From Gallionellales bacterium GWA2_55_18 (GTDB lineage: Bacteria > Pseudomonadota > Gammaproteobacteria > Burkholderiales > Gallionellaceae), in contig MGWP01000012.1 in assembly GCA_001801055.1 (NCBI GenBank), forward strand, positions 1 through 56,024: a stretch of 56,024 bases of DNA, in the 5' to 3' direction. The translations under genes were made by a program, and so were the position numbers. Every line of letters begins with the position of its first letter. The stretch's first letter is position 1. A model generated the notes under the pieces. That model had not been told where the DNA came from and ran no database searches. It saw only the letters and a list, made by a program, of their open reading frames with translations. Positions 7,083-35,624 of this stretch are shown here, piece after piece.

Positions 7083-8485
7083 ATACGCCGCCAGGTTGTG
7101 CCGTTCGCACTATCTTCCAGCACGATACCGGTCTCCAGCAACTCCTTGCGGATACGGTCGGCTTCGGCGAAGTTCTTCGCCTTTTTCGCGGCGATGCGCG
7201 CCTCGATCTGTGCATTGATTGCGGCATCGTCAAGCCCGCCTTTGGCTGAGCCGCCTTGCAAAAATGCCTGCGGGTCGCGTTGCAGCAAACCAAGCATTTC
7301 CGCCAAAGTCTTGAGCTGCGCAGCCGCTTCAGCGGATTGAGTACGGTTCACTTCATTGGCCAAGTCGAACAGTACCGCCATCGCTTCCGGCGTGTTGAAG
7401 TCATCGTCCATCGCAGCTTTGAAGCTCTGGGCGTGGGGTGCATTCCAATCAACTGCAACCCCCCCAGCCCCCCTTGTCAGGGGGGGGCCGGGAGGGGTTA
7501 TGCTTTTCAGCGCCGTATAAAGTCGCGTCAGCGCGCCTTTCGCATCGTCCAGATGCATGTCGGAATAATTCAGCGGGCTGCGGTAATGCGCGCGCAGGAT
7601 GAAGAAGCGCACCACTTCGGCGTCGTATTTCTTCAGCACCTCGCGGATGGTGAAGAAATTGCCGAGCGACTTGGACATTTTTTCCTCGTCCACGCGCACG
7701 AAGCCGTTGTGCATCCAGTAATTCACAAATTTGCACTGGTGCGCGCCCTCACTTTGCGCGATCTCGTTCTCGTGATGCGGAAACTGCAAGTCCGCGCCGC
7801 CGCCGTGGATATCGAAATGCCTGCCCAGGATTTCCGTGCCCATCGCCGAGCATTCGATATGCCAGCCGGGTCGCCCTTTGCCCCATTTGGAATCCCACTT
7901 CACTTCGTCTGCTTCGCTTTCTTTCGCACTCTTCCACAACACGAAGTCGAGCGGATCGTTCTTGCCCTCCACAACATCCACGCGCTCGCCTGCGCGCAAG
8001 TCTTCCAGCGATTTGCCGGACAGTTTTCCATAGCCGTCAAACTTGCGTACCGCATAATTCACGTCGCCATCTGCTGCCCGATAGGCCAGCCCGTTGCTTT
8101 CCAGCCTGGCGATCATGTCCAGCATTTCCGGCACGAATTGCGTGGCGCGCGGCTCATGATCCGGGCGCTGCACGCCCAGCGCATCGGCATCCATATGCAT
8201 CGCGTCGATAAAGCGTTGCGTCAGCGCATGGATGGATTCGTTGTTCTCCGCCGCGCGCCTGATGATCTTGTCGTCGATGTCGGTGATGTTGCGCACATAG
8301 TTGACGTCGTAGCCGGAAGCTTTCAGCCAGCGGTACACCATGTCGAACACCACCATCACGCGCGCATGGCCGAGGTGGCAATAGTCGTACACCGTCATAC
8401 CGCACACGTACATGCCGACCGTGCCCGGCACAATCGGCGTGAACTCTTGTTTGTCACGGGTGAGCGTGTTATAGATTTTTAGCAT
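7079..8485 (-). CDS. cysS: Cysteinyl-tRNA synthetase with an in-frame repeat insert
   Basis: [50 protein letters not shown]. Confidence 0.98.
7457..7500. repeat. CCCC/GGGG palindromic repeat inside cysS
   Basis: AACCCCCCCAGCCCCCCTTGTCAGGGGGGGGCCGGGAGGGGTTA, same family as 18125-18257; encodes [14 protein letters not shown]. Confidence 0.8.
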
Positions 8486-8495
8486 TTGGAAACCT

Positions 8496-8563
8496 TTTTT
8501 GTCCGCAGATTACACAGATTCACGCAGATTTAATCTGTTTAATCTGCGCAATCTGCGGACGAA
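8496..8563. repeat. Intergenic inverted repeat (CCGCAGATT...AATCTGCGG family)
   Basis: TCCGCAGATTACACAGATT...AATCTGCGCAATCTGCGGA; partial copies near 19234-19251 and 30170-30181. Confidence 0.7.
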
Positions 8564-8567
8564 GTTT

Positions 8568-10289
8568 TTACCCTTGTTCCTTCGCCCAAGAATCCTTGAG
8601 CGTCACGGTACGATTGAACACCAGCCTACCGCCCGGCTGATGCTCGCGGCGGTCGGTGCAGAAATAACCCAGACGCTCGAACTGGTAGCGTGTTTCCGGT
8701 GCTGCCTCGCGGACCGCGGCCTCGACCCAGCCCTGCACTACGGTCAGCGAAGCCGGGTTGAGATAGCTACAGAAATCCACCTCCCGATCCGCGTCCGGTT
8801 CAGGTATGGTGAACAGGCGGTCATACAGGCGAATCTCGGCGGGCAGCGCATGTTCGCACGACAGGAAATGGATCACGCCTTTTACCTTGCGCCCTTCCGG
8901 GTTCTTGCCCAGGGTATTGTGGTCGATGCTGCAACGCAACTCGATCACCTTGCCCACCGCATCCTTCACCGCTTCGTCGCAGCGTATCACGTAACTGTGG
9001 CGCAAACGCACCTCGCCGCCGATGGCGAGCCGCTTCCAACCGACTGGTGGCACTTCTGCAAAGTCGTCGGCCTCGATGAATAATTCCTTGCCGAACGGCA
9101 CGATGCGTTTTCCAAGCTCCGGCATGTTGGGATGGAAATCCGCTTCACGAGCCTGCGCGCCGTCAAAGTTGGTGATGGTGACTTTGAGCGGATTGATGAC
9201 TGCCATCACGCGCGGTGCGCGCAATTCGAGGTCTTCGCGGATCGCACCTTCCATGATCGCCATATCGACGCTGTTCTCGCTCTTGGATACGCCGATGCGT
9301 TTGGCGAATTCGCGAATGCCTTCCGGCGTGTAGCCGCGCCTTCTCATGCCGGAAATCGTCGGCATGCGCGGGTCGTCCCAGCCGCTCACATGCTTCTCGT
9401 TCACCAGTTGCAACAGCTTGCGTTTGCTGGTGATGGTGTAGTGCAGCTCCAGCCGTGAAAATTCATATTGGCGCGGATGGCAGGGGATGGTGATGTTGTC
9501 CAGCACCCAATCGTATAGCGGGCGGTGATCCTCGAATTCCAGCGTGCAGATGGAATGGGTGATACCCTCCAGCGCGTCGGAAATGCAGTGCGTGTAGTCG
9601 TACATCGGGTAGATGCACCACTTGTCGCCGGTGCGGATATGGTGCGCGCGGCGGATGCGGTAGATCGCCGGGTCGCGCAGGTTGATGTTGGGCGAGGCCA
9701 TATCGATTTTGGCGCGCAGCACCATCGCACCGTCGGCGAATTCGCCGTTTTTCATGCGCGCGAACAGGTCGAGGTTTTCCGCCACGCCACGATCACGATT
9801 CGGGCTATTTTTGCCCGCCTGCGTCAATGTGCCGCGATATTCGCGCATCTGTTCCGGCGTGAGATCGTCCACATACGCCAGGTTTTTTTTAATCAACTCC
9901 ACTGCAAAATCGTACAGCGCATCAAAATAATCCGACGCCCAGTGCACTTCGCCGCTCCACTGGAAACCCAGCCAGCGCACGTCGTCCTGGATGGATTGCG
10001 CATACTCCTCGCTCTCCTTCTCCGGGTTGGTATCGTCGAAACGCAGGTTGCATTTACCCTGGTAATCCTGCGCCAGCCCGAAGTTCAGGCAAATGGACTT
10101 GGCATGCCCGACGTGCAAATAACCGTTGGGTTCTGGCGGGAAGCGTGTAACAATGCTGCGGTGCTTGCCGCTCGCCAGATCGGCCTCGATGATGCTGCGG
10201 ATAAAATTGGAAACAACGGGTTGGGTCATGCCGCTCATGCTGGGCTTCTTGCTTTCAATTGGATTGATGATCTGTTGGTGGATCGACAA
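8568..10289 (-). CDS. glnS: Glutaminyl-tRNA synthetase (true start may be 10238 or 10229)
   Basis: [51 protein letters not shown]. Confidence 0.97.
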
Positions 10290-10493
10290 AATACACTGCG
10301 GATTTTACCTGAAAATACTGGTATCAGAGGATTGACGGTTGTGGAACGTAAATCGGGCTAAAGCCACTTCTCCATTTTTATCTCACCCCCCGATTTTACT
10401 TCTCCGCGCTTACAAAACTATGGAAATACACGGATTTTTTGGTAGAATCCGCCGCTAGCTGAAATTCGCGCATCCAAGGAACCGAACAACACG

Positions 10494-11576
10494 ATGAATA
10501 TGTTTAACCGTTTTTTTTACCGCCATGCCGCAATATTTGCCGGCGCATTGCTGTTATCTGCCAGCCCCGCTGTTTATGCCGATGATGTACAGGACGCCCA
10601 CAAGTTATTTAAAAAGGGGCAGCATAGCCAAGCGATGGATAAGGTAAATAGTGTTCTGTCTGCCAAGCCGAAAGACGCGCAAGCACGTTTTCTGAAGGGG
10701 TTGATCCTCACCGAGCAAGGCAAGCCCGCCGATGCCATCAAGACATTTTCGGCTTTGACCGAGGATTACCCCGAGCTGCCCGAACCGTATAACAACCTGG
10801 CTGTGTTGTATGCCAGCCAGGGGCAATATGACAAGGCCAAGCAGTCGCTGGAAATGGCGATACGCACCCATCCCAGTTATGCTACCGCGCACGAGAACCT
10901 CGGCGACATTTACGCAAAAATGGCCAGCCAGGCATATGACCGCGCGCTGCAACTGGATCGCAGCAACACCGCCACCAAGACCAAGCTGGCAATGATTCAG
11001 GATTTATTCTCGAACAGCACCCGCGTCAAATCTCCAGCATCGAACAAAGCTGCCCCTGATGCTGCCGCTGCCACGAGCAAACCGCAAACTGCTGCCGCAG
11101 CGCCTGTCCCGCCCGTTGTTGGCACGGTTCTCCCGGTATTGGCGGCAGCTCCTGTACCCGCAGTAGCTGCGCCCACAGCACCCGCACCAGCGGCCAAAGC
11201 AAATGCACCGGAAAAACCAGCCGAACCTGCCGCAGCCAATAACAGCGGTGAAGTATTGAAGGTTGTCAACGCGTGGGCTGCCGCATGGTCAGCCAAGGAT
11301 GTCAAAAAATATCTGTCATTCTATGCGCCCGATTTCAAGACGCCAGACGGCGAAAAACGTGCTGACTGGGAAGCTGCCCGCAAAGAGCGCATCAGCAAAC
11401 CAAAATCCATCCAGGTTGGCATCGGCAACGCGACGGTGAATTTCAATGGCAATCATGCCACCGTGAAATTCCGCCAGTCTTACCAGGCCAAGCACCTGAA
11501 ATCTTCAAGCAACAAAACATTGCTGATGGTGAAGTCCAACGGAAGCTGGTTGATCCTTGAAGAGCATTCCAGATAA
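10494..11576 (+). CDS. Exported TPR protein with an Ala/Pro linker and C-terminal NTF2/SnoaL-like domain
   Basis: Signal peptide, YPELPEPYNNLAVLY TPR, WAAAWSAKDVKKYLSFY. Confidence 0.85.
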   Translation: MNMFNRFFYRHAAIFAGALLLSASPAVYADDVQDAHKLFKKGQHSQAMDKVNSVLSAKPKDAQARFLKGLILTEQGKPADAIKTFSALTEDYPELPEPYNNLAVLYASQGQYDKAKQSLEMAIRTHPSYATAHENLGDIYAKMASQAYDRALQLDRSNTATKTKLAMIQDLFSNSTRVKSPASNKAAPDAAAATSKPQTAAAAPVPPVVGTVLPVLAAAPVPAVAAPTAPAPAAKANAPEKPAEPAAANNSGEVLKVVNAWAAAWSAKDVKKYLSFYAPDFKTPDGEKRADWEAARKERISKPKSIQVGIGNATVNFNGNHATVKFRQSYQAKHLKSSSNKTLLMVKSNGSWLILEEHSR

Positions 11577-11578
11577 TC

Positions 11579-12748
11579 ATGACATATAGGGCACTGACTT
11601 CTTTGCTTCTGTGCGGACTGCTGGCAGGCGTGGCGCAAGCCGCGCCGGATTCGCACAATACTGAGGCGCAGTTGGCAAAAAGCCTGCAAGCCATCAAAAA
11701 CAACCGCCTCGATATTGCGCTTAATGAGGTGGACAACCTGTTGCGGTTCAATCCAAATTTCAAGCTGGCTTATCTGGTCAAAGGCGATTTGCTGATGGCG
11801 CGCGCCGGTGCGATTAATAATTTTGGCAACGCGCCAAATGCCCCGCGCGAGATGATCGAAGGTTTGCGCGATGAGGCTCGGGTGCGCCTGCAACGCGCAC
11901 AGACGCGCCTCTCCATCAAACTCCCGCCGCGCTATCTGTGGAAGCTTGATGCGCGACAAAAATATGCCATCGTGGTGGATACCAGCCGCTCCACGCTGTA
12001 CGTCTACGAGAATGTCAACGGCGAACCGCGTTATGTGGCGGACTACTACATCACTATCGGCAAATTCGGCACGGAAAAGGTTTCCGAGGGCGATCAACGC
12101 ACGCCTATCGGCGTATATTTTGTAAAAACAGAATTACCCAAAGACAAACTTTCTGATTTTTATGGCAATGGTGCTTACCCGCTCAGCTACCCCAACGAAT
12201 GGGATCGGAAAAACAAACGTACCGGAAGCGGTATCTGGCTGCACGGAACACCCAGCGACACTTACAGCCGCCCGCCGCGTGCCAGTAACGGCTGCGTAGT
12301 GCTGGCCAACGATGACCTTGACAAGCTTGCCCCTTACCTGCAAGTTGGCATTACCCCGGTCATCATTACCAACCAGATAGACTGGGCCAACGAACAAGAC
12401 CAGGTCGAGCGCGATGCGTTGCTGCAGGAATTCGAGCAATGGCGCAAGGATTGGTCCAGCCTGGATACGGACACCTACCTCAAGCACTACTCGCACAATT
12501 TTTCCAGCGAAGACATGAATTACCCGGCATGGGCAAAGCAGAAGCAACTGGTGAACAGCGCAAAGTCGTGGATCAAGGTCAATGTTTCAAATGTGAGCAT
12601 ATTCACTTACCCGGAGCAACCCAATATGGCGGTGGTCAACTTCGAGCAGGACTACAACAGCAACAACCTGTCCAATCGCATGAAGAAACGCCAGTACTGG
12701 ATCAAGCAGAACAGCCGCTGGCAGATCGTTTACGAAGGCGCCGCATGA
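11579..12748 (+). CDS. L,D-transpeptidase (YkuD) family protein with C-terminal NTF2-like domain
   Basis: [22 protein letters not shown]...SNGCV catalytic motif. Confidence 0.9.
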
Positions 12749-12749
12749 C

Positions 12750-13325: not shown

Positions 13326-13330
13326 TCATA

Positions 13331-13361
13331 AAAACGGCGCGCCTCGCGCCGTTTTGTTTTT
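13331..13361 (+). terminator. Rho-independent terminator-like hairpin
   Basis: AAAACGGCGCG-CCT-CGCGCCGTTTT followed by a T-rich tail. Confidence 0.6.
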
Positions 13362-13362
13362 C

Positions 13363-14106: not shown

Positions 14107-14291
14107 CTTCGGAATGTGTCTCGGTGAATGTCTGCTAACAGGGCAGCATTTCGTATTTTCCAAAAACAGACGCCGTTAGGTTGGTGTATACAAAAGCGGG
14201 GCAAGCCCTTTGCTGCTATGTAAAATCAACTCCTGAGCCTGATGGTTGCTGCCCGCCTCGCGACCATGTTCAGCGCCTCATGACCGATTGG

Positions 14292-17422: not shown

Positions 17423-17922
17423 GAAAGAATGCTTTTTACGATAGCCAGGCACAGCAACGCATAACCTGCGGCCAGCAGGTCGTCAAACATCACGCCCAGC
17501 CCGCCGTGCCAGTTGCTGTCGAAATAGCGGATCGGCGACGGTTTGGCAATATCGAAAAAACGGAACAGCCCGAAGGCCAGCAGCGACCAATCCAGACCCG
17601 GCGGGGTGAAGAACAATACCAGCATGAAAGCGACGATCTCGTCCCACACGATGCCGCCATAATCGGCCACGCCCAGCACTTTGCCGGTAATGCCGCACGC
17701 CCACACGCCGACGGCGAATGCGCCAGCCAGCATGAGCAGGAACATCGCATCCGTGAGGCGCGGCGCGAGATACCAGTAGATCGGGAAGGCGGCCAAGGTG
17801 CCGAACGTGCCGGGCGCCTTGCGCGCCAAACCGCTGCCGAAACCGAACGACAGCAGATGCGCCGGGTGGCTCAGCACAAACTGCAAGCTCGGTTTGACGA
17901 GCAATTCACCGGAAGTGGTCAT
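17419..17922 (-). CDS. pgpA: Phosphatidylglycerophosphatase A
   Basis: [40 protein letters not shown]; follows thiL. Confidence 0.95.
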
Positions 17923-19141
17923 AACCGCAAGCCTCGATGTTGAGTGGATTACCCGACGCATCGTGCACGATACAGCCGCGCCCCGCAACAACTTTCCCGA
18001 TACAGGCCAGCGGCAGATCAAGCCTTGCTGCGATATTCAACAGTTCAGCATGGCGCGCAGCCGGTGCGGTGAAGCACAATTCGTAATCGTCGCCACCGCA
18101 CAGGATGCATTGTTTAAGCAACTCAACCCCTCCCGGCCTCCCCTTGTCATAACCAGCGACTTGGTCATCGTCTTTTGATGGCCTAGTCGAATGGCTAGTT
18201 GTTTTATCAGGGGAGGAGTTAGGCTTCCCCCCTGACAAGGGGGGATTGAGGGGGGTTAGGCGCTCACGCAACACAGCCGAAACCGGCAACGCATCGAACT
18301 CAATCTCCGCCCCCACCTGCGAGGCTTCGAGAATATGTCCAAGATCGGCGAGCAGGCCGTCGGAAATATCAATCGCGCTGTTGGCGATGCCGCGCAATAC
18401 CAGCCCCAGCGCCACGCGCGGCTGCGGTTGATGCAATGCGGCAGTGCAAGCGGCGAACTCTGTTGCGTTCAGCAGGATACGGCCTTGCAGATGCGCGAGC
18501 GCCAGCGCCGCATCGCCCAGACAACCAGACACCCAGATTTCATCGCCAACTTGCGCGCCGCTACGGCGCAACGCCTGTTGCGCGGGTACTTCGCCGAAGA
18601 TGGTCACGCATAGATTAAGCGGCCCGCGCGTGGTGTCGCCACCGACCAATTCCACGCCATGCTGCTGTGCCAAGGCAAAAAATCCCGCACTGAATTGCGC
18701 CAGCCATGCCTCATCCACAGTAAACATAAGTTCGCGTAGCGATTCGTTTGTCCCCTCTCCCGCCGGGGTAACCAGCGACTTGGCTGCGGTCGTTTGCAGC
18801 CTAGTCGAATGGCTAGTTGTTTCATCCAGAGGGTTAGGGTGGGGGCATTCATGGCTTGTTTCTTTGCCTTGAACGAAGGGCAACGCGATGGCCAGCGTTG
18901 CCCAGCGCGGCGCGGCGCCCATTGCCGCCATATCGGACAGGTTTACCGCGAGGGTCTTGTGCCCCAGCATGAACGGGTCGGCATTGGGAAGAAAATGCGT
19001 GCCGCATACCAGCATGTCGCTGGACACCGCCAGCACATTGCCCGCACTCGCTTGCAGCAGCGCGGCATCGTCGCCCACGCCAAGCAGTGCACCGGGAGTG
19101 GCGCGGGTGAAATAGCGACGGATCAGGTCAAATTCGGACAT
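17906..19141 (-). CDS. thiL: Thiamine-monophosphate kinase carrying two in-frame composite repeat inserts
   Basis: [52 protein letters not shown]; 411 aa versus roughly 320 for typical ThiL. Confidence 0.95.
18125..18257. repeat. Palindromic doublet with a nested 60-bp element (18149-18208)
   Basis: CCCTCCCGGCCTCCCCTTGTC[60 bp]AGGGGAGG...CCCCCCTGACAAGGGGGGATTGAGGGGGGTT. Confidence 0.85.
18730..18846. repeat. CCCCTCTCCC/GAGGG-type repeat with a nested ~60-bp element (18768-18827)
   Basis: CCCCTCTCCCGCCGGG[TAACCAGCGACTTGG...CTAGTCGAATGGCTAGTTGTT]AGAGGGTTAGGGTGGGGG. Confidence 0.82.
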
Positions 19142-19146
19142 GGTTT

Positions 19147-19226
19147 GTAGGATGGGTTGAGCGCAGCGATACCCATCGTTTTACGTTAACAAATTGATGG
19201 GTATCGCTGCGCTCAACCCATCCTAC
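19147..19226. repeat. GTAG-type REP doublet
   Basis: GTAGGATGGGTTGAGCGCAGCGATACCCATC and its perfect inverted copy, between nusB and thiL. Confidence 0.9.
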
Positions 19227-19265
19227 GGCTTTAATCTGTTAAATCTGCGGATAAAGTTTTGAAAG

Positions 19266-19748
19266 TTACTTCGCCGCCACTTCCGCCGCGCGTACCTGCA
19301 TCGCCAGCTTGTCGAGCACGCCGTTGACGTATTTGTGGCCGTCGGTGCCGCCAAAAGTTTTGGCCAGTTCGACCGCCTCGTTGATGACGACTTTGTAGGG
19401 CACCTCGGGGTGCTGCGACAATTCAAATGCCCCCAGCATCAATACAGCAAACTCCACCGGGCTGAGTTCTGCAAGCGTTCTGTCGAGATGCGTAGCGAGC
19501 AGTGTTTCAAGTTCGGCATGACTACCCAACGTGCCGCGCAGCAATTTGGAGAATAATTCCTTGTCGTAGCGACCGAGATTCTTTTCGGCATGAATCTGTT
19601 TTTCTATTTGCGCAGCGTCGCCCGCCGTGACACGCCATTGATAGACTCCCTGCAGCGCAAGTTCGCGCGCGCGATGGCGCGGGCTTTTATTCGACGTTTT
19701 TTTTATTTCCTGATCGGCGGCCAGGTTGCTCAAGCCAGGATTGCTCAT
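19266..19748 (-). CDS. nusB: Transcription antitermination factor NusB
   Basis: [37 protein letters not shown]. Confidence 0.97.
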
Positions 19749-21901: not shown

Positions 21902-23044
21902 TTATCCTTTTTTTACCCGCGCCACGATGCGCAAATCCTTGCCGACGTGACGCACATCTTTCCATTCCAGTTCGATGCGCTGTTCCAAACTGGCTAGCTC
22001 ACCCAATTGCGCCATGCCGCGCGCCATGTCGCCGAGCAACTGCGGCGCAAGATACAGCACCAGCTCATCCACCAGCCCGGCCTTCAACAAGGCCCCATTC
22101 AATTTGCTGCCCGCTTCCACCAGCACTTCGTTGCAGCCCTGTGCGGCGAGGTCGTGCAGCACTGCTGCTGTATCCACCTGGCCGCTCGCATCCGGCAGCA
22201 CCACGACTCGCGCTCCTGCTTGCTCCAATGCGGCAATTTTCTGCGCATCTTGCATGGCGGTGTAAATCAGGACGCTACCGCCTCCTGATTCCCCCCCACC
22301 CCCAGCCCCTCCCCCGGAGGGAGAGGGGTGTTGTTGCAGCAGGCGTGCGCTCGACGGCATTTGCAAGCGGCTATCCACCACCGCGCGTAGCGGCTGGCGC
22401 GACGTCTCGATACCGCGCACATTGAGTTGCGGATCATCCGCCAGCACGGTGCCGATACCGGTCAACACAACGCAAGAGCGCGCGCGCCAATGCTGCACAT
22501 TCTGCCGCGCCGCGTCGCCGGTAATCCACTTGCTTTCGCCGTTGTTGAGCGCGGTACGCCCGTCCAGGCTCATGGCGATCTTGCTTCTTACCCACGGCAT
22601 ACCGCGTGTCATGCGCGCAAAAAAACCGATATTCAATTCGCGCGCCGCCGCTTCCATCAGGCCGCATTCCACTTCGATGCCTGCCGCACGCAATTTTTCG
22701 ATACCTTGCCCGGCTACCTGCGGATTGGGGTCTTGCACCGCCACCACCACGCGCGCCACTCCGGCCTGGACCAACGCATCCGCGCAGGGCGGGGTGCGGC
22801 CATGATGGCTGCATGGCTCCAGCGTCACATAGGCGGTTGCGCCGTGTGCCGCCTCACCGGCTGCTTGCAGCGCATGCACTTCCGCATGGGGTTCACCGGC
22901 GCATTCGTGCCAGCCTTCGCCAACGACGCTGCCCTCGCGCACCAGCATGCAGCCGACGCGCGGGTTAGGGCTGGTGGTGTACAGGCCGCGCTCCGCCAGC
23001 CGGAGCGCCTGCGCCATCCATAGGCTGTCTTGTGCGGAGAACAT
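21902..23044 (-). CDS. ribD: Bifunctional deaminase/reductase RibD with an in-frame repeat insert
   Basis: PNPRVG, HAE, TLEPCSHHGRTPPC, SLDGRTA, VEAG. Confidence 0.97.
   Translation of the reverse strand: MFSAQDSLWMAQALRLAERGLYTTSPNPRVGCMLVREGSVVGEGWHECAGEPHAEVHALQAAGEAAHGATAYVTLEPCSHHGRTPPCADALVQAGVARVVVAVQDPNPQVAGQGIEKLRAAGIEVECGLMEAAARELNIGFFARMTRGMPWVRSKIAMSLDGRTALNNGESKWITGDAARQNVQHWRARSCVVLTGIGTVLADDPQLNVRGIETSRQPLRAVVDSRLQMPSSARLLQQHPSPSGGGAGGGGESGGGSVLIYTAMQDAQKIAALEQAGARVVVLPDASGQVDTAAVLHDLAAQGCNEVLVEAGSKLNGALLKAGLVDELVLYLAPQLLGDMARGMAQLGELASLEQRIELEWKDVRHVGKDLRIVARVKKG
22290..22330. repeat. CCCC/GGGG palindromic repeat inside ribD
   Basis: CCCCCCCACCCCCAGCCCCTCCCCCGGAGGGAGAGGGGTG; encodes HPSPSGGGAGGGG. 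Confidence 0.78.
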
Positions 23045-25179: not shown

Positions 25180-25328
25180 TTAAGGGAGCCTCTAAAAATC
25201 CATATTTCATCCCAACTGTTGCGTTGCGTAAAAAATTTCTTGCTTACATATCAAACATATGCGACGCGGCGAAATTTTTTACGCGCCTTGCATTTGGGCG
25301 AACTCTGAATTTTTAGAGGCTCCCTTAA
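25180..25328. mobile_element. MITE-like element with TTAA ends
   Basis: Perfect 20-bp terminal inverted repeat TTAAGGGAGCCTCTAAAAAT, plus an inner hairpin GCGTAAAAAATTTC/GAAATTTTTTACGC. Confidence 0.85.
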
Positions 25329-25361
25329 CAGCACGCCACCAAACCAACTCAGGGAGAAAAC

Positions 25362-26091: not shown

Positions 26092-26117
26092 ACAAAGCCG
26101 GCGCAAGCCGGCTTTGT
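26092..26117 (+). terminator. Rho-independent terminator
   Basis: ACAAAGCCGGC-GCAA-GCCGGCTTTGT. Confidence 0.75.
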
Positions 26118-26232: not shown

Positions 26233-27408
26233 ATGATCCTGATAACCGGCAGTGCAGGCTTCATCGGCGCAAACTTTGTCCTGGACTGGCTTGCGCAGCA
26301 TGACGAAACCGTTGTTGGTCTGGACAAGCTGACCTACGCGGGCAATCTGGAAAGCCTTGCGTCCCTCAAGGACGATCCGCGCCATATTTTTGTGCGCGGC
26401 GATATCGGCGATGCGGAATTGGTGGGGCAGTTGCTGAAACAACACCGCCCGCGCGCCGTCATCAATTTTGCGGCGGAAAGCCATGTGGACCGTTCCATCC
26501 ACGGCCCGGAGGATTTCATCCAGACCAACATCGTCGGCACCTTTCATTTGCTGGAGGCAGTGCGCGCCTATTGGCAAAACCTCCCCTCTCCCGCGGGCGG
26601 GAGAGGGGCTGGGGGGCGAGAAGGGGAATTCACGGAGCATGCTCCGTGCCCTTCAAGCGGTTCCGGAATGCAGTCCGGAACACGCTCTGCAAGAGAGGGT
26701 GTCATTCAAGATAGCTTCCGCTTCCTGCATGTTTCCACCGATGAAGTGTATGGCTCGCTTGCCAAAGGCGATCCCGCTTTCGGCGAAACGCACCGTTACG
26801 AGCCGAACAGCCCGTATTCCGCCAGCAAGGCCGCCAGCGACCATCTGGTGCGCGCCTACCATCACACCTATGGGTTGCCGGTGCTGACCACCAACTGCTC
26901 CAACAACTATGGCCCGTATCACTTTCCCGAGAAACTCATCCCATTGATGATCGTCAATGCCCTCGCGGAAAAACCGCTGCCGGTGTATGGCGACGGGCAG
27001 CAAATCCGCGACTGGCTGTATGTCAAAGATCATTGCAGCGCGATCCGCTGTGTGCTGGAAAAAGGCAGGCCGGGCGAGGTTTACAACGTGGGCGGCTGGA
27101 ACGAAAAAGCCAACCTCGATATCGTGCATATCATCTGCACCTTGCTCGACGAACTGCGCCCGCGCAAGGACAGCCAGTCATACCGTGAACAGATTTCCTT
27201 TGTTGCCGACCGCCCCGGCCATGACCGCCGCTATGCGATCGATGCGCGCAAGATTGAGCGTGAACTGGGCTGGAAACCAACCGAGACTTTCGAGACCGGT
27301 ATCCGCAAGACCGTGCAATGGTATCTCGACAATCAGGGCTGGGTGAATAACGTGCAGTCCGGGAACTACCGGCAATGGGTTGAGAAAAACTACGCGGGGC
27401 GGGGTTGA
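26233..27408 (+). CDS. rfbB: dTDP-glucose 4,6-dehydratase with an in-frame composite repeat insert
   Basis: [50 protein letters not shown]. Confidence 0.97.
26581..26700. repeat. CCCCTCTCCC repeat with a nested ~78-bp two-hairpin element
   Basis: CCCCTCTCCCGCGGGCGGGAGAGGGGCTGGGGG[insert ~26616-26693]AGAGGG. Confidence 0.82.
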
Positions 27409-29194: not shown

Positions 29195-29224
29195 CGCCTT
29201 GGATAAACCTAGAAAAATCAGTTG

Positions 29225-29354
29225 TCCACGAAAGGCACGAAAAAATACAAACAGATTCAAATGTATGCAAATGTTAGCAGCATCACCTGATCGGTGAGTA
29301 GCCAAGGCTGAGTAACAAATTGATTTATTTTGTGACTTTCGTGTTTTTCGTGGA
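29225..29354. repeat. Intergenic inverted-repeat element (CCACGAAA...TTTCGTGG)
   Basis: TCCACGAAAGGCACGAAA ... TTTCGTGTTTTTCGTGGA, between convergent genes. Confidence 0.6.
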
Positions 29355-29393
29355 TGAAAAGAGCTATTGGCGGCGCTGGAGATTTGAGGGTTC

Positions 29394-30128
29394 TCAAAAG
29401 CTGTTTTTCAGCCGCTGCATGCTGTTTATATAGCGCTGCAACAAAATATTGGCCGAGCCGCTGAGATTGATGAACTGGCATCCTGCACGCTTGACCGCCT
29501 GCCCGGATTTGGTAGGTAATGAAAACAGGCTCCTCACTATTATCGTGACACTGATTGTGCCCATGTCGTGCAATTTGATTTGGCAATTTTCATAAGTTTT
29601 CCCCTGCACAAGTTCGGCCTCACCCTCTGCGTAGGTCAGTTTCATGCCTCCTGCGCTGATATCCATCAGGTTCACTTCGCACGACTGTCCAGACTTTGGT
29701 TCGCCTGCCGGAATGATGCAGCACAAAGGTTTTGCGGATGGAATATCGAGCCGAAAACTTTCCCTTCGCTGCAACCGGTAAATAGTTTTGGGCAATGGCA
29801 GATGAAAGGCGGCATAACCCTGATACTCCATGCCGCGTATCTGATTGGCGGCAAACTGCACCTTGACCTCCAAATGAGTGCTGACAAGCAACAAGTTGCC
29901 GCTTTCGAGAATACGTTGATTGTCGAGGCCATTTGCGGCCTGCTCCAACCATAAACCTTTGTCGCTGACTCCCAGCAGCGTGGTCAGGATAAAGTAACTG
30001 CCATCAACGTAATAAAGCGCAACGCGAGTTGCATTTTCGACAATATGTTTCAATACCGATACAATTTCTTTGGCCGAAACGATACCATGCTCATTTTCCT
30101 CTCCGCGCGAAAGAGTTTCATATTTCAT
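29394..30128 (-). CDS. YcgR/PilZ c-di-GMP-binding flagellar brake-like protein
   Basis: QRRESFR and DISAGG PilZ motifs, with an N-terminal YcgR-like domain. Confidence 0.88.
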   Translation of the reverse strand: MKYETLSRGEENEHGIVSAKEIVSVLKHIVENATRVALYYVDGSYFILTTLLGVSDKGLWLEQAANGLDNQRILESGNLLLVSTHLEVKVQFAANQIRGMEYQGYAAFHLPLPKTIYRLQRRESFRLDIPSAKPLCCIIPAGEPKSGQSCEVNLMDISAGGMKLTYAEGEAELVQGKTYENCQIKLHDMGTISVTIIVRSLFSLPTKSGQAVKRAGCQFINLSGSANILLQRYINSMQRLKNSF

Positions 30129-30198
30129 GGGACTATTTCACTCATATTCTTGAAAGACTAAAAGGCATTTGTCCGCAGATTAAACAGTCCGCTTTAAC

Positions 30199-31116
30199 TC
30201 ACTGAATGTAACAACTTGCTCCAGGTTCTGTTTGAAGTATTGGCGCTACGTTATTGCTCCGTATTGTCGAATTTCCAGAATCGTCCGGTGCTGGCGTCCC
30301 CTGAGTTGGCGCAGTGGACGCTGTTGTTGCGCGCTGCTGCGACGAAGACAAGATCCCTGCTTTCTCGACGACGACGAGTGTCGCCTGGTTGGCTGGTCCG
30401 GCCCCGTTTGTTGCAGGCCTTGGCTGATTCGGCGTATTTGCGGCAGCGGGGTCGGCTTGCTTTTTCTTCTCGTCCAGCTTCGGAATCACAGTTGGCGGCG
30501 TGAAGCCGATGCCCGGATCGCGCGGCAGCAGCACCGGCCGTAGTCCGGCCGGCGCATACACCACCTGTCCCGCCGCCACAGTCAGGCGGCCTTGGGGATT
30601 GGTGACCTGCATCGCACCGAAGCGCACCGCCAGATACGTCCCATCCTTCAGCGCCCCGCAGTTACCCTGACAGACCCGAATGTCATATCGGGTGCCGCGG
30701 ATGCCGATGGTGGCGGTCTGGGTCTTGAGTTCGTAGGCATCCTGGTTGCCGCGCTTGCCGATGAGTCCGGTCACCGTGCGCAGGCCGCCTTTCAGCATGC
30801 TGAAGATGAAGTTGTCTTCGACCGGTTTGGCCTCGACGAACTTGTAGCTCTCCACCCTGAGTTGTGAGTCCGGGCGCAGTACCATCTCGCCGCCGTCGGT
30901 CATTTCCACGCGGACATAGCCTCCCGCACCGGTGATCACCGTGTCGCCGACGCTGACTTTGACCCCGGCCGCGCCGGGAAGAACCCTGCCATCGACCTTC
31001 TGTACCGACACTGCTCCGGACAGGTGGGTGAGCGTGCCGTCGGCCCAGGCAGGAAGGGCGGCGAGCAGGAGCAACAGGGCGGCAAGGGCGGACAGATGGG
31101 TGGTGTTCGGTTTCAT
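30199..31116 (-). CDS. Exported FecR-domain protein
   Basis: Signal peptide ending AWA, GDTVITG, KGGLRTVTGLIGK, TATIGIRGT. Confidence 0.85.
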   Translation of the reverse strand: MKPNTTHLSALAALLLLLAALPAWADGTLTHLSGAVSVQKVDGRVLPGAAGVKVSVGDTVITGAGGYVRVEMTDGGEMVLRPDSQLRVESYKFVEAKPVEDNFIFSMLKGGLRTVTGLIGKRGNQDAYELKTQTATIGIRGTRYDIRVCQGNCGALKDGTYLAVRFGAMQVTNPQGRLTVAAGQVVYAPAGLRPVLLPRDPGIGFTPPTVIPKLDEKKKQADPAAANTPNQPRPATNGAGPANQATLVVVEKAGILSSSQQRATTASTAPTQGTPAPDDSGNSTIRSNNVAPILQTEPGASCYIQ

Positions 31117-31118
31117 CG

Positions 31119-34100
31119 TCATCCCCCTTTGCGGCACACCAGTGCCTGGCCCATCGGTCGGTCGATTTGGATGATCTCCTCGACGGGCCTCCGTATCACG
31201 AAATTGGCGACGGTGATGGTCTGGATCATCGAGACGATGGCGTCGGTGACGGTGGTGGTCGTGGTGGAGGTACCGCTGCTGGTCGTCGAAACCGTTGTTT
31301 GCGTCTCGGTCGTGCCGGATGGGGCCGTCGTGGTGGTCATCGTGGTGGTCATCGTGGTCGGCGCCAGCACGGTGGTCTGGATCATCGAGGCGATGGCGTC
31401 GGTGACGGTGGTGGTCGTGGTGGAAGTCGTGACCGGCGGAGGCGGCACTGCGGTGATGGTGAGCGTACCGTCGATGTAGGCTAGGCTATAGTTGTTCGCG
31501 GTCAAGCCAGTGGGCGTAATGGCGTAGCTGCCGGCGTTGACGGCGCCCTGTGCCGTGCCGCCGTAGCCGAGCGTACCGGAAAGCACGGAACTGTTCTCGC
31601 CATTGACGAAGCCGACGTAGCTGACGCCATTGCCGCCGCTGTAGGCGAAGCCGTCGTAGGTCTTGCCGGCGGCGTTGGCGGTGACGGTCAGTGGTGCCGG
31701 GGTAATGGTGGCGACCTGCGTGCCGCCGGTGAAGGTGTAGTTGCTGGCTAGGCCGTTGGTGCCATTGCCCAGCGCGAGGGTGTTCAGGGTAACCGGCTTG
31801 TTGGCGCCGACGTTGGGGTTGGCGAGGATGCCGACGCCGCTGAGCGTGAGGTCTTGACCGCTCACCAGACCGCTCAGCGTGAAGATGTTTGCATTTACAT
31901 TGGTCGTGCCGTCGTAGGCGCGCGTGCCGTTCAAGCTGATTGCGCTCAGGGCGACGGGGTTGATGGTCAGGTTTCCGCCAGTGAGGTCATAGCCTTGCTG
32001 GTTGGAATAATAGCCATTATAAAAACCCGCATTGGTTCCCGTGGCGGCTACACCAAAGAAATTACCAATGTCGGGCATGCTACTTGCGCCGCTTTGCGCC
32101 ATACCGTTGTACGTCACGGCCACATCCGGCGCGTCGGCAAGCGTCAGGGGTGTCAAGAAGCTGGTGAGCAAGGGCGCGCTATGGCCTTCATAGATGCGCC
32201 ACACGGCACCGCTGCCGCCGGTGTTGGCGATGTCCCATCCCGCAGCAGTGAAGTTCGACATCGCCGTCATCTGGGCGGTGGATAGCCCTGTCTCAGGTCC
32301 GCTGCTAGTTGCACGGCCGGATGCTTGAACATCCCAGTAGTTGTTGTTGCTGGCGAACCCTTCTTCCCAACCAATCAACCCGCCGCCATTGCTGCCGCCA
32401 GCAGCAACGGCGTTGGTGCTGTAGGAAGTGTCAACTATGTTCCAGTTGGCACCCACCAGCCCACCAAAATACGAAGTCCCACTCACCGTGCCGCCGCTGG
32501 AATAGGTATCCGTAATGGTGCCGCTATTTTCGCCTGCCAAGCCGCCGACATACCGATTACTACCCACTGTGACGCCGCTGGAATAACTGTTGCTGATACT
32601 GCCATTGTTATACCCCACCAAGCCGCCGACATCGCTGTTTCCGCCATTAACCGTGCCGCCGCTGACATAAGAGTTGCTGATATTGCCGTTGTTCGTACCC
32701 GCTAAAGCACCAACAAAATCGCTCCCAATAACATTGCTAGTCAACAAGCCCAGGTTGCTCACCGTGCCGCCCGTCGCTATGTTGCCGAACAAGCCTACAT
32801 AACCAGCCGCCGGACGATTGATAGCGAGATTGCTGATGGTGTGGTTCAGCCCGTTAAACGTGCCGGTGAATTGAGTGGTGACATCCCCGATCGGCGCAAA
32901 GCCGCTGGTAATGCCCGTAGCCACCGTCAGCGTAGCACCGCCGACCCCGGCGACACTCGCTGTACCCCATATGTCATTGGGATTGGCAAGGGCTGCGGCG
33001 AGGTCAAGGTCGTTCGCCAAGGTATAATTCGCGGCCAAATTCATACCGATCAACTGCAACTGGTGCGCGTTGCTGATCGTGGTGCTGTATTCCATGCGCA
33101 GGATGGGACGGGTGCTGCCTTCGACCATGTACCATTTATTGGTAAAGTCCCATTGCCCACCAGCTTGCGGATAGGTTGCTTGCGTCATCATTGCGGTGGT
33201 GGTTAAACCTGTGCCGACTGCGGAAGTTGCCCAGCCTGATGTTATGGTATCCCAGAAATTGTTGCTGACCGTGCCGCCTGCATTCATCCCCACCAGCCCG
33301 CCGACATTGCTGGTACCGGTCACACCGCCCGTGCTGTAGGAGTTGGTGATTGTGCCGGTATTGCCACCCACCAGCCCGCCGACATTTGACGCGCTGCCGC
33401 TCACTGTGCCGGTGCTGTAGGAGCTGTAGATTGCGCCGCCATTATTCCCTAACAGCCCGCCGACATTGTTGGCACCGCTCACTGTGCCGGTGCTGTAGGA
33501 ATAGTAGATTGCGGCGCTGCCGGAGGCGTTCCCTCCCACCAGCCCGCCGACATAGTTGCCGCTGCCGCTGCTGACTGTGCCTGTGCTGTAGGAACTGACA
33601 ACTGTGGCTGTGTTATAGCCCACCAGCCCGCCGACATAGCCGGTGGTTCCGATGCCGGTCACAGTGCCGGTGCTGTAGGAATTGGTGATTGTGCCAGTAC
33701 CGTTAAGCCCCGCCAGCCCGCCGACCTGATTGCGGCCGGTTATACTGCCGCCAACCAGCCCGACATTGCGGATAGTTCCATTCGTATATCCGAAAAGACC
33801 GACATTATCTGTGGCAGGCCTGTTTATAGTCAGCCATGTAAGGGTATGCCCGAGCCCGTCAAAGTTGCCGGTGAATGTGCCCACAGGCAGAAAGCCCGCG
33901 TAAGTGGTGCCGCTGACAAAATTCCAAGTTGACGTTGCCGTCGCGTCGATATTGCTGCCCAACGCATAGTTCGCGGCCAGTCCGCCATTCATCCCTTGCA
34001 AATCCATAGCCGTGACGCTACCCGCCGCACCCAGGCTGGTGATAACGGTGTAGTTTTTGGCGGGGCTGCCCGCCGAACCCAGCTTGGTGCTGAAATTATT

Positions 34101-35624
34101 TCCGGCGGGGAGGTTGACGGCGGCGTTGACGTTGTAAGTGTTGTTACCGCCGCCCCATGCCGAAGCTTGACCATATTCCAGCGCGAGGCTTGCGCTGCCG
34201 GAGCCGTTCAGGTTGGCGTTGATGTTGATGTTGTTTTGCGCGTTGAGGGTGAGCTTGTTGGCCGACCAGGTCACCACATCATTCACGTTGACATCGCCCA
34301 ATGTTCCGGTGCCACCGCTGGTACTCAAGATGCTGAAATTTCCACCTGACAGTGCCGTGCTGACGGCAGTCCCGGTCATGTCACCGCCAGTGGCAGCGAT
34401 GGTGAAGTCGAACGGGTCAATCAGCCAGATGCCATTTATGCCGTTGTCTGCAAGGGTGGTAACGCGCGCGGTATCCGCCACTTGCACATGCGCCGCACTG
34501 GTTTCGATGAAGCCGCCGTTGCCGTTCAAGGATGAGGCATCCAGCGTGCCACCAACCTTGACCATGCCACCCGCCATGTCGCCCATGAGCTTGATTTGCC
34601 CGCCGCCGTTGGCGCCGGAGGCGACGATGCTGCCGGTGTTTTCGACGATGGCGCCTTCGAGCAGGATTTCGCCGCCTTTCATGGTCAGCCCGATGGCGCG
34701 GATGATGCCGCTGTTGTTCACGACCCGATCCAGCGTTTCCCTCGCCTGCCCGGCGGTGAGCGTGATCTGGGCGCCATCAATGCTGCCGCTGTTCTCGATG
34801 CTCGCTTTGAGCGCGGCATCCTCGACACGGGCGCGGATGAGGCCGTCGGCGGTAAGATCAATAGCCACGGTGTTGCCCGCCGCCAGCGTGACGGTGGTGG
34901 CGATGATTTTCCCGGCGTTGTGTGTGGTGTTGCCGATGAGCGCTACACTGCCCAGCGCATTGATGGTTCCCTCGTTGCGGATGCTGCCTGAGCCGGGGTT
35001 GGTGAGCCGGTAATTGCCCGCCATGAAATCGCTGTTGCCGAGGCTCATCGTCGTAGCGAGAATGCCGCCGACATTGACCTGTGCCCCGCGTGCGAACAGC
35101 ATCCCGTTGGGGTTGCTGAAGAAGACCTGGCCGTTGGCGTTGAGTTTGCCGTATATCTCGGATGCGCTGTTGCCGCCGATGCGATTCAAAGCCACCGCAT
35201 TCGCATTGGGTTGGTTGAAATTGACCGTAGCGGAAGCGCCGATGTTGAAGCTTTTCCAGTCGATTGCCGCACGCTGGCTGGATTGTTGGACGATGAGGAT
35301 ATTGGCGACCTGGCTGATGGTCGCGCTGCCTGCGGTGACGCTCCCGCCGGTGGGCAGCGCGCCCACGTCGAGGGCGTGGGCGGGTGCGCCGATGATGGCG
35401 AGCGCGAGAGTAAGTGGGAGAAGTGCGTAGGATTGTGTAAACGATAATCGCTTCGACAGGCTCAGGACAGGCATGGTGGGCATAGCCCACCCTACGGTTG
35501 CTTCATCCGGTTTGGGGCTGGCTCCGACCGTGCTGCTGCGCTTGCCGCGCCCCTTGGCGATTTCGGCGACAGCCGCCCAGGTGTTGGCAATCTCGCTCCA
35601 GACAAGACGATAGATGTGGTTCAT
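31119..35624 (-). CDS. TpsA filamentous haemagglutinin-like exoprotein (ESPR, TPS domain, GLUG repeats, YDG/MBG, Thr-rich tail)
   Basis: MNHIYRLVW ESPR, IDWKSFNIG, NPNG, repeated YSTGTVSG..VGGLVG, RAYDG/KTYDG. Confidence 0.92.
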   Translation of the reverse strand: MNHIYRLVWSEIANTWAAVAEIAKGRGKRSSTVGASPKPDEATVGWAMPTMPVLSLSKRLSFTQSYALLPLTLALAIIGAPAHALDVGALPTGGSVTAGSATISQVANILIVQQSSQRAAIDWKSFNIGASATVNFNQPNANAVALNRIGGNSASEIYGKLNANGQVFFSNPNGMLFARGAQVNVGGILATTMSLGNSDFMAGNYRLTNPGSGSIRNEGTINALGSVALIGNTTHNAGKIIATTVTLAAGNTVAIDLTADGLIRARVEDAALKASIENSGSIDGAQITLTAGQARETLDRVVNNSGIIRAIGLTMKGGEILLEGAIVENTGSIVASGANGGGQIKLMGDMAGGMVKVGGTLDASSLNGNGGFIETSAAHVQVADTARVTTLADNGINGIWLIDPFDFTIAATGGDMTGTAVSTALSGGNFSILSTSGGTGTLGDVNVNDVVTWSANKLTLNAQNNININANLNGSGSASLALEYGQASAWGGGNNTYNVNAAVNLPAGNNFSTKLGSAGSPAKNYTVITSLGAAGSVTAMDLQGMNGGLAANYALGSNIDATATSTWNFVSGTTYAGFLPVGTFTGNFDGLGHTLTWLTINRPATDNVGLFGYTNGTIRNVGLVGGSITGRNQVGGLAGLNGTGTITNSYSTGTVTGIGTTGYVGGLVGYNTATVVSSYSTGTVSSGSGNYVGGLVGGNASGSAAIYYSYSTGTVSGANNVGGLLGNNGGAIYSSYSTGTVSGSASNVGGLVGGNTGTITNSYSTGGVTGTSNVGGLVGMNAGGTVSNNFWDTITSGWATSAVGTGLTTTAMMTQATYPQAGGQWDFTNKWYMVEGSTRPILRMEYSTTISNAHQLQLIGMNLAANYTLANDLDLAAALANPNDIWGTASVAGVGGATLTVATGITSGFAPIGDVTTQFTGTFNGLNHTISNLAINRPAAGYVGLFGNIATGGTVSNLGLLTSNVIGSDFVGALAGTNNGNISNSYVSGGTVNGGNSDVGGLVGYNNGSISNSYSSGVTVGSNRYVGGLAGENSGTITDTYSSGGTVSGTSYFGGLVGANWNIVDTSYSTNAVAAGGSNGGGLIGWEEGFASNNNYWDVQASGRATSSGPETGLSTAQMTAMSNFTAAGWDIANTGGSGAVWRIYEGHSAPLLTSFLTPLTLADAPDVAVTYNGMAQSGASSMPDIGNFFGVAATGTNAGFYNGYYSNQQGYDLTGGNLTINPVALSAISLNGTRAYDGTTNVNANIFTLSGLVSGQDLTLSGVGILANPNVGANKPVTLNTLALGNGTNGLASNYTFTGGTQVATITPAPLTVTANAAGKTYDGFAYSGGNGVSYVGFVNGENSSVLSGTLGYGGTAQGAVNAGSYAITPTGLTANNYSLAYIDGTLTITAVPPPPVTTSTTTTTVTDAIASMIQTTVLAPTTMTTTMTTTTAPSGTTETQTTVSTTSSGTSTTTTTVTDAIVSMIQTITVANFVIRRPVEEIIQIDRPMGQALVCRKGG
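35449..35495. repeat. Two different REP-like units inside the tpsA signal region
   Basis: CTTCGACAGGCTCAGGAC (family of 44785-44846) and GGTGGGCATAGCCCACCCTAC (GTAG REP on the minus strand). Confidence 0.72.

What the first reader, a model, noticed from the sequence alone, without database searches (positions are those of the whole stretch)
7457..35495. Palindromic repeats inserted in frame in multiple housekeeping genes
Seen: repeat DNA translates as P/G-rich loops in CysS ([13 protein letters not shown]), ThiL (two inserts, about 45-55 aa each), RibD (HPSPSGGGAGGGG), RfbB (about 40 aa) and the TpsA leader, with every frame and catalytic motif intact. Known precedent: Rickettsia palindromic elements in coding regions. 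Inference: here several unrelated repeat families colonise CDSs at high density (six sites in 28 kb), which could be an active route to new protein sequence in this lineage.
Basis: partly seen in the sequence, partly recalled or inferred. Interest (0 to 1): 0.85.

Follow-up and report, generated by a model that had tools for sequence, protein, structure and literature searches.

The report
Repeats within repeats inside core enzymes
In this groundwater bacterium several families of tiny hairpin DNA repeats sit in frame inside dozens of core genes and a 60-base element sits inside those repeats; they are likely selfish DNA tolerated as floppy protein loops, a known phenomenon whose predicted mobilising enzymes are still untested.

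Summary
Confirmed. Net inserts are CysS ~9 aa, ThiL 52 and 42, RibD 17, RfbB 37 and the TpsA leader ~17 (TpsA is not housekeeping). Relatives show empty loops. Genome-wide, 51 repeat loci add ≥6 aa in 47 of 1,093 orthologue pairs. In-frame palindromes are known (Rickettsia RPEs, intragenic REPs). Added here: (1) The main coding family matches the BoxC/triplex consensus and brackets DUF559 nuclease genes (49 of 61 loci on both sides); one whole cassette is in frame in a helicase. (2) Both ThiL inserts contain a 60-nt covarying hairpin element that lands inside other repeats (112 of 226 sites vs 7 of 904 controls), mostly at C|T, without target duplication. (3) The same loops were hit repeatedly by different families. 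(4) The one insert tested shows no protein-level selection, and both ThiL inserts are modelled as low-confidence loops. Best reading: layered selfish DNA filtered for frame and tolerance. Translation and mobilising enzymes are untested; no partner gene for the 60-mer was found. This scan already reported both the BoxC–DUF559 link and the 60-nt element on other genomes.

The parts
7454..7501 (-). CysS loop insert, A2-type hairpin-plus-tail repeat (aa 329-344; net ~9 aa); likely an eroded form of the dimer seen in G024
18722..18877 (-). ThiL insert 1 (aa 89-140; net 52 aa): 32-aa BoxC-type insert shared with G016 and G018, plus nested 60-nt element
18769..18828 (-). 60-nt hairpin element 'B' nested in ThiL insert 1; precise insertion relative to G016/G018, no duplication
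18122..18259 (-). ThiL insert 2 (aa 295-340; net 42 aa): A2-type dimer also in G024 and G020, plus nested 60-nt element
18150..18209 (-). 60-nt hairpin element 'B' nested in ThiL insert 2 at a C|T step
22286..22336 (-). RibD insert (net 17 aa), BoxC/TMECO-type repeat (1 substitution from the consensus with relaxed spacing)
26575..26715 (+). RfbB insert (net 37 aa): 11-aa BoxC-type repeat common among homologues plus a nested 26-aa double-hairpin piece
35448..35498 (-). GTAG-REP plus E-type composite repeat in the extended signal-peptide region of a TpsA exoprotein; the composite recurs at 5 other places in G000
8495..8567 (.). intergenic C2-type repeat cluster between glnS and cysS
19146..19259 (.). 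intergenic GTAG-REP dimer plus C2-type repeat between nusB and thiL
25180..25329 (.). intergenic F-type long inverted repeat upstream of glyA (a family that hosts B elsewhere)
29215..29361 (.). intergenic C1-type inverted repeat pair (the family that flanks a GxxExxY nuclease gene on C26)

Best explanation
The inserts are copies of small multi-copy hairpin repeats lying in frame in loop-coding positions of conserved genes, and they are likely selfish DNA that accumulates in layers and survives only where the frame is kept and the extra residues are tolerated as a predicted disordered loop. Layer 1 (shown): BoxC/triplex-type repeats supply most coding inserts and are the same sequences that bracket DUF559 nuclease genes in inverted orientation. 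Inferred (about 50%): they are the non-autonomous ends of that cassette, spread when the nuclease nicks DNA and repair copies a repeat or the whole cassette. Layer 2 (shown): a 54-60-nt structured element inserts precisely, without duplication, mostly at C|T, inside pre-existing repeats of many families and inside itself. Inferred (about 40%): it moves as single-stranded DNA by an HUH/Y1 enzyme acting in trans, because TnpA-REP cuts at C|T and C|A. Filter (inferred from counts): frame-breaking or core-disrupting events are purged; a tolerated repeat then becomes a landing pad for the next element, so loops grow. Translation of the inserts is inferred, not shown.
For: Filled/empty orthologous sites for all five enzyme inserts. 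Three paired sites differ by exactly the 60-mer: ThiL-1 G000 vs G016/G018, ThiL-2 G000 vs G024 (protein alignment), CysS G029 vs G025. 62 of 500 G000 repeat loci are internal to ORFs matched on both sides in G029, and 51 add ≥6 aa in 47 genes, including MetG, MutS, MutL, Mfd, RecG, AddA/B-like, GlnD, GlnE, FolC, LysA and CoaBC (run on 48 of the 54 G029 counterparts). A-type 37 of 89 loci internal vs GTAG REPs 0 of 159 and C1 0 of 88. 45 bracketed loci intact vs 8 flagged broken, most of the 8 being shadow-frame or gap artefacts by inspection. DUF559: hairpin within 150 nt upstream 60 of 67, downstream 59 of 67, both 49 of 61; 600-750 nt away 0 of 52 and 2 of 55; whole cassette in frame (+182 aa) in a DEAH helicase on C29. 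Element B: C before 205 of 229, T after 195 of 229; empty site inside a profiled repeat 112 of 226 vs 7 of 904 random CT sites; compensatory pairs in 157 copies; 16 of 16 coding copies are multiples of three vs 36 of 60 intergenic or unmatched copies. ThiL model: inserts pLDDT <50, core matches 3mcq at TM 0.87. Insert 1 pN about equal to pS. TnpA-REP C|T and C|A cleavage: PMC8266576 passages.
Against: No partner gene for B was found: no recurring mobile-enzyme ORF within 250 nt of 276 copies and no split ends, and the 6 Y1 genes of G000 and G029 are flanked by GTAG REPs, not B. B shows no replication-strand bias in G029 (15 of 25, p=0.42), and B lacks a GTAG tag 5' of its hairpin. B subtypes cluster by host family (nearest neighbour same host 0.89 vs 0.41 shuffled), so many copies may have spread as host+B composites and the counts are not independent events. 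The DUF559 link is co-location only, among relatives of one query. Synonymous divergence in ThiL insert 1 (0.05-0.14) is far below the gene's (0.45-0.49), which pure neutrality does not predict. Low pLDDT partly reflects thin alignment columns. No shuffle control was run for the covariation.
Confidence: 0.72

Rival explanations
1. The repeats are kept by the host as DNA or RNA structural elements (mRNA folding, pausing, protein-binding sites) and the peptides are by-products.
For: ThiL insert 1 is conserved at synonymous sites far more than its gene, with no lowered divergence in the flanks. The 11-aa RfbB insert is retained in 46 of 118 parsed homologues, although that list is ranked by likeness to the insert. 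B shows strong compensatory pairing.
Against: Most congeners lack each insert, different families occupy the same loop, and PIT/BoxC elements showed no promoter, terminator or in vivo effect in E. coli (PMC4666352 passages). Recent lateral spread or conversion among copies also gives low divergence.
Confidence: 0.15
2. The inserts are an adaptive source of new protein sequence: the peptides have acquired function.
For: Frames are intact in essential genes, and some inserts persist across species.
Against: pN about equal to pS in the one insert tested; no single conserved peptide, since B is read in three frames on both strands; modelled as low-confidence coil; loops interchangeable among families.
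Confidence: 0.08
3. Element B is moved not by an HUH enzyme but by an IS110-type recombinase (as MITEPpu9 into REPs) or through an RNA intermediate (as proposed for cyanobacterial SDRs).
For: IS110 members target REPs and mobilise a gene-less module (PMC12288879 passages); two IS110 fragments lie in this window; no target duplication; no strand bias. Self-nesting and covariation resemble SDRs (recalled, paper not held).
Against: ISPpu9 leaves its core dinucleotide at both ends, whereas B has CT on the left and AT, AA or AC on the right. B enters many unrelated target sequences, and 60 nt is too short to carry a bridge RNA (own knowledge).
Confidence: 0.35
4. Shared inserts move between species as filled alleles (recombination or homing) rather than by fresh insertion.
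For: Carriers of the same A2 dimer at ThiL site 2 (G000, G024, G020) are not one clade on the insert-free thiL tree (p-AU 0.003), nor are the two E2 carriers (0.0008); insert DNA is less diverged than the gene. This is compatible with, and may add to, the best explanation.
Against: Single-gene tree of 942 nt, AU run with only 2,000 replicates (program warning); no co-conversion tract in the flanks; site-1 carriers are not rejected as a clade (p-AU 0.12); multiple precise losses are an alternative.
Confidence: 0.4
5. The inserts are removed from the RNA or protein, or are assembly artefacts.
For: Joints skipping ThiL-1 and RfbB inserts appear in metagenome contigs at 90% likeness.
Against: Those joints occur in DNA runs and are explained by relatives with empty sites; at 98% likeness none joins the gene flanks. 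All four outer junctions of the ThiL inserts are bridged by exact contigs in X1 (X1 may be the source sample), and other genomes carry the same inserts. 16 of 16 coding B copies keep the frame, which removal would not require.
Confidence: 0.04

Closest known systems
Rickettsia palindromic elements (RPE; Ogata 2000/2002, seen only as summarised in PMC10969869 and PMC3733652)
   Same: Palindromic repeats in frame in unrelated housekeeping genes; several families; also intergenic copies.
   Different: Here 27-156-nt heterogeneous, layered inserts read in several frames; free-living groundwater bacterium; candidate partner nuclease; sequence homology to RPEs not tested.
Intragenic GTAG/CGTC REPs (Di Nocera 2013, PMC3733652, section 15 and passages read)
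   Same: Small palindromes and dimers inside ORFs, often DNA-repair genes and tRNA synthetases, up to 43-82 aa.
   Different: In G000 GTAG REPs are never internal to conserved regions (0 of 159); the coding families are BoxC-type and other untagged repeats.
BoxC / PIT / TMECO triplex motif (Holder 2015, PMC4666352, passages read)
   Same: Consensus matched exactly 28 times in G000 and 23 times in G029; RibD and RfbB inserts within 1-2 substitutions.
   Different: Always intergenic and not linked to mobile elements in E. coli per that paper; here 37 of 89 A-type loci are inside genes and the repeat brackets DUF559 genes.
REPtrons: TnpA-REP/RAYT with REP ends (PMC8266576, passages read)
   Same: Enzyme gene bracketed by inverted hairpin repeats (as DUF559 here); C|T and C|A cut sites match B's junctions.
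   Different: DUF559 is a PD-(D/E)XK-type nuclease, not HUH (own knowledge); B has no 5' GTAG tag and was never seen flanking a Y1 gene.
Small dispersed repeats SDR1-8 of Nostocaceae (Elhai 2008; recalled, paper not held)
   Same: Tiny, structured, lineage-confined elements found inside other repeats and inside themselves, with compensatory changes.
   Different: SDRs recalled as 21-27 nt; B is 54-60 nt, has a fixed 5' leader and a C|T preference.
MITEPpu9 / ISPpu9 (IS110 family; PMC12288879, passages read)
   Same: Gene-less module mobilised in trans into REP targets via circles.
   Different: One REP family, core dinucleotide at both ends, carries an sRNA gene; none of these holds for B.

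Membership tests
Rickettsia palindromic elements | Palindromic repeat inserted in frame in protein-coding genes | tested here: met
Rickettsia palindromic elements | About 105-150 bp unit encoding one conserved peptide | tested here: not met
   net inserts 9-52 aa; B read in three frames on both strands
Rickettsia palindromic elements | Sequence homology to RPE families | not tested
   no RPE sequence was fetched
BoxC/PIT/TMECO (A1 family) | Published consensus of hairpin plus purine third strand | tested here: met
   28 exact, 73 relaxed in G000 vs 2 in reversed control; RibD 1 and RfbB 2 substitutions with relaxed spacing
BoxC/PIT/TMECO (A2 family: CysS, ThiL-2) | Published consensus | tested here: not met
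   no match within 5 substitutions (ThiL-2 tested with B in place); same hairpin-plus-tail layout by eye
BoxC/PIT/TMECO | Intrastrand triplex formation in vitro | not testable with these tools
   needs CD/NMR as in PMC4666352
BoxC/PIT/TMECO | Intergenic location | tested here: not met
   37 of 89 A-type loci internal to conserved ORFs
GTAG REP / RAYT system (TpsA insert, D families) | GTAG tag 5' of a hairpin, same type flanking a Y1 gene | tested here: met
   (flanks read by eye)
GTAG REP / RAYT system (element B) | GTAG tag 5' of hairpin | tested here: not met
GTAG REP / RAYT system (element B) | Flanks a Y1 transposase gene | tested here: not met
   0 of 6 Y1 loci in G000 (72% complete) and G029
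GTAG REP / RAYT system (element B) | C|T (and C|A) junction chemistry | tested here: met
   C before 205 of 229; T after 195, A 25, C 9; enzyme activity itself untested
IS200/IS605-type single-strand elements (element B) | Orientation bias relative to replication | tested here: inconclusive
   15 of 25, p=0.42, origin taken from GC skew
MITE (element B) | Terminal inverted repeats and target-site duplication | tested here: not met
   precise insertion at paired sites, asymmetric ends
IS110-mobilised module (element B) | Core dinucleotide at both ends | tested here: not met
   left CT, right AT/AA/AC vs PMC12288879
SDR-like very small mobile repeats (recalled) | Nesting in other repeats and in itself, compensatory pairing, lineage confinement | tested here: met
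   the definition itself is from recall
SDR-like very small mobile repeats (recalled) | 21-27 nt length | tested here: not met
   54-61 nt
Known Rfam RNA family (element B) | Match at gathering score | tested here: not met
   window 17900-19300, no match at gathering score

The most novel reading that the evidence does not exclude
DUF559 cassettes bracketed by BoxC repeats are an undescribed class of nuclease-driven mobile element that homes between repeat copies and across species, and the 60-nt hairpin is a hyperparasite that recognises hairpin-bearing repeats by structure rather than sequence; together they form a ratchet that lengthens the same protein loops again and again across a whole bacterial family.
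Probability: 0.3. Interest if true: 0.85.

Novelty: new variant of a known kind. Interest (0 to 1): 0.55.

Why it matters
In-frame palindromes are known, but how such repeats spread is open. This genome names testable candidates: a DUF559 nuclease for the long-orphan BoxC motif, and a precisely bounded 60-nt element with C|T junctions that fit HUH chemistry. Recurrently invaded loops in about 4% of conserved genes also map natural insertion-tolerant sites and offer a direct test of whether repeat-derived peptides are neutral or become functional.

Tried and rejected
No RNA holder listed for the thiL-ribD stretch; the laid runs were contigs only, so expression and junction reads could not be tested. 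Rfam: only sub-threshold miRNA-like hairpin hits. First copy-number test of insertions was unusable because the control was contaminated by paralogues (175 of 965); replaced by profile-based calls. First frame-break test was unusable because of shadow ORFs (52 intact vs 48 flagged); redone. A 9-locus protein cluster near B looked like one orthologous site but was joined only by the shared repeat peptide. No partner gene for B among 1,501 nearby ORFs, no split ends. GIY-YIG family not found in G000 (72% complete), so the E-type repeats have no shown partner. One seed family (H1) had no hits. The ThiL-1 'empty' string printed was cut two bases off and was not used. RibD and RfbB loops in congeners other than G029 were not seen at DNA level; RibD lengths in other congeners come from match coordinates only. 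ThiL loci of G007 and G002 did not parse and 4 of 31 CysS loci did not parse. Literature searches that found no paper on a BoxC-DUF559 link or on element B: (listings only; open-licence library; supplements such as Additional file 3 of PMC3733652 were not read and may list such repeats). Rejected readings: assembly artefact; MITE; RPE membership in the strict sense.
Full report
Setting. The window is contig C12 of a 1.69-Mb, 72%-complete assembly, G000. The lineage is inferred to be Gallionella-like: the closest named homologues of two window proteins are labelled Gallionella, and the 80 titles shown for a pattern of the nested element are Gallionellaceae or less specifically labelled betaproteobacteria, plus one Sulfuricella and one Thiobacillus.

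Observation. CysS, ThiL, RibD and RfbB pass their NCBIfam cut-offs and carry the described loops in frame; each loop's DNA folds into hairpins. ThiL site 1 is 57 aa against 5 aa in 22 of 27 congeners (4 carry inserts, 1 unparsed), and site 2 is 42 aa longer than in 22 of 27 (5 carry inserts) (28 of 30 fetched loci parsed). The CysS loop is 18 aa against 8-10 aa in 11 of 27 parsed loops, while 14 others carry repeat-like inserts of at least three families and one is frame-broken. RibD has 17 aa more than G029. The RfbB loop is 47 aa against 10 aa in 28 and 21 aa in 46 of 118 parsed homologues, a list ranked by likeness to the insert. The TpsA leader is 88 aa against a median of 71 in 41 homologues, and other repeat types occupy the same leader in P0005 and P0008; TpsA is an exoprotein next to a ShlB/FhaC-family gene, not housekeeping. 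Exact contigs of run X1 bridge all four outer junctions of the ThiL inserts (X1 may be the source sample, and the inner B junctions are not bridged by 31 letters on both sides). An AlphaFold model places both ThiL inserts between core elements at pLDDT below 50, and the core matches ThiL 3mcq with TM 0.87; low confidence partly reflects thin alignment columns.

Genome-wide. Eighteen profiles give 742 hits merging to 500 loci in G000, with 2 hits in reversed sequence. Sixty-two loci lie inside ORFs matched on both sides to G029; 51 add at least 6 aa, in 47 genes of 1,093 orthologue-like pairs. A few of the 62 are shadow-frame or doubtful, and RibD was missed, so the count is approximate. Hosts include MetG, MutS, MutL, Mfd, RecG, AddA/B-like, GlnD, GlnE, FolC, LysA and CoaBC (on 48 of 54 G029 counterparts). 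G029 has 24 internal loci of 170, so this is a genus-level trait. Families differ sharply: A-type 37 of 89 internal, G1 5 of 12, E 7 of 53, GTAG REPs 0 of 159, C1 0 of 88, although C1 has about five open frames of six. Among loci bracketed by one G029 gene, 45 are intact and 8 flagged, most of the 8 being shadow-frame or gap artefacts by inspection.

Layer 1. The A1 family matches the TMECO/BoxC consensus of PMC4666352 (passages read): 28 exact copies in G000, and RibD and RfbB within 1-2 substitutions; the A2 variant in CysS and ThiL-2 does not match. The BoxC name came from earlier notes of this scan and was tested here. Four of five DUF559 hits in G000 have A-type hairpins upstream and three also downstream; one whole cassette adds 182 aa in frame to a DEAH helicase, HrpA-like by recalled motifs. 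In 80 metagenome relatives of one DUF559 (7 duplicates dropped), hairpins lie upstream in 60 of 67, downstream in 59 of 67, on both sides in 49 of 61, tails pointing inward, against 0 of 52 and 2 of 55 windows 600-750 nt away. This is co-location among kin; that the nuclease spreads the repeat is inference (about 50%). Other families have their own neighbours: GTAG REPs flank Y1 genes, C1 flanks a GxxExxY gene.

Layer 2. Both ThiL inserts contain a 60-nt element (18769-18828 and 18150-18209, minus strand). A profile finds 87 copies in G000, 45 in G029 and 147 in fetched loci; of 229 with defined ends, 172 are 60 nt, 34 are 59 and 10 are 54, with C before in 205 and T after in 195 (the loci were chosen by a pattern that fixes the element, not its flanks). 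Paired sites show precise insertion without duplication: ThiL-1 against G016/G018, CysS of G029 against G025, and at protein level ThiL-2 against G024. Reconstructed empty sites fall inside one of 17 other repeat profiles in 112 of 226 cases against 7 of 904 random CT sites, 150 of 226 with looser motifs including 12 self-insertions. Stems show compensatory changes across 157 copies (no shuffle control). All 16 coding copies are multiples of three against 36 of 60 intergenic or unmatched copies; three of six frames are nearly always open. The element also sits in the RfbB loop of P0125, P0130, P0141 and P0148 and in the flanking repeats of 6 DUF559 loci. C|T and C|A are the TnpA-REP cut sites (PMC8266576 passages), which favours an HUH mechanism. 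Against it: no partner gene, no B beside six Y1 genes, no replichore bias (15 of 25), no 5' GTAG tag. Subtypes cluster by host, so some copies spread as composites.

Selection. In ThiL insert 1 across G000, G016 and G018, pS is 0.05-0.14 against 0.45-0.49 in the rest of the gene, and pN is 0.07-0.08 in the insert and 0.06-0.08 in the rest: no protein-level constraint, but young or constrained DNA. On an insert-free thiL tree the site-2 carriers are rejected as a clade (p-AU 0.003) and site-1 carriers are not (0.12) (one gene, 2,000 replicates), pointing to repeated gain or lateral spread of filled alleles.

Comparison and verdict. In-frame palindromes are established for Rickettsia (as summarised in PMC10969869, passages), for REPs in many taxa (PMC3733652, section 15 and passages) and for Geobacter repeats (PMC2700814, passages); PMC3184786 (passages) reviews the idea of new peptides. 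The system works like RPEs but fails their size and single-peptide features; A1 is BoxC by consensus; B resembles cyanobacterial SDRs (recalled) and fails MITE, GTAG-REP and IS110-module tests. My searches listed no paper on a BoxC-DUF559 link or on B, within an open-licence library and without supplements. Earlier notes of this scan reported both on other genomes; they are not independent support. Verdict: real, a new variant of a known kind, interest 0.55.

Noticed in passing
G000:C29:4141-4686(-): Complete repeat-DUF559-repeat cassette adds 182 aa in frame to a 1,431-aa DEAH helicase (HrpA-like by recalled motifs); a second A-type insert lies upstream in the same gene.
   Followed up: partly
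G000:C78:6719-7030(+): DUF559 read through its 3' repeat into an SdhE-like protein (identified from a recalled motif only).
   Followed up: no
G000:C26:8944-9391(+): GxxExxY nuclease gene flanked by C1 repeats; the upstream one carries the 59-nt B variant found in about 17 C1+B composites in G000.
   Followed up: partly
window 46191-46262, 50171-50240, 50760-50830, 51869-51940: Four related imperfect palindromes with ends resembling integron attC sites (recalled pattern) around low-GC ORFs; possible cassette array interrupted by IS elements.
   Followed up: no
window 46332-48339 and 49110-49907, 51195-51830: Tyrosine recombinase plus IS91-family Y2 transposase pair, and two truncated IS110 transposase genes.
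   Followed up: partly
G000:C51 about 25-27 kb: About 50 identical 36-37-nt spaced repeats, CRISPR-like array.
   Followed up: no
L236:1350-2100: A run of about ten B elements nested in one another, both subtypes.
   Followed up: partly
G000 and G029, several loci: A second B subtype with a different 5' leader inserts before A and is the one usually found in GTAG REPs.
   Followed up: partly
window 1237-1300: GTAG-REP dimer between the gspE-like and gspF-like genes; it makes the longest gspF ORF look 42 aa longer than the likely true start.
   Followed up: partly
G000:C5:6016-6330 and G029:C1:1009559-1009867: Four-helix-bundle (PF05635) genes bracketed by short purine/pyrimidine heptamer-like inverted repeats, another small gene-plus-repeat cassette.
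   Followed up: no
G000:C75:21186-21231: An integrase-like gene appears broken by an A1 repeat, one of very few candidate frame-breaking insertions.
   Followed up: no
window 26618-26716: Double-hairpin 78-nt piece nested in the RfbB repeat; no other copy in the DNA held, shared with P0121; perhaps a rarer nested element.
   Followed up: partly
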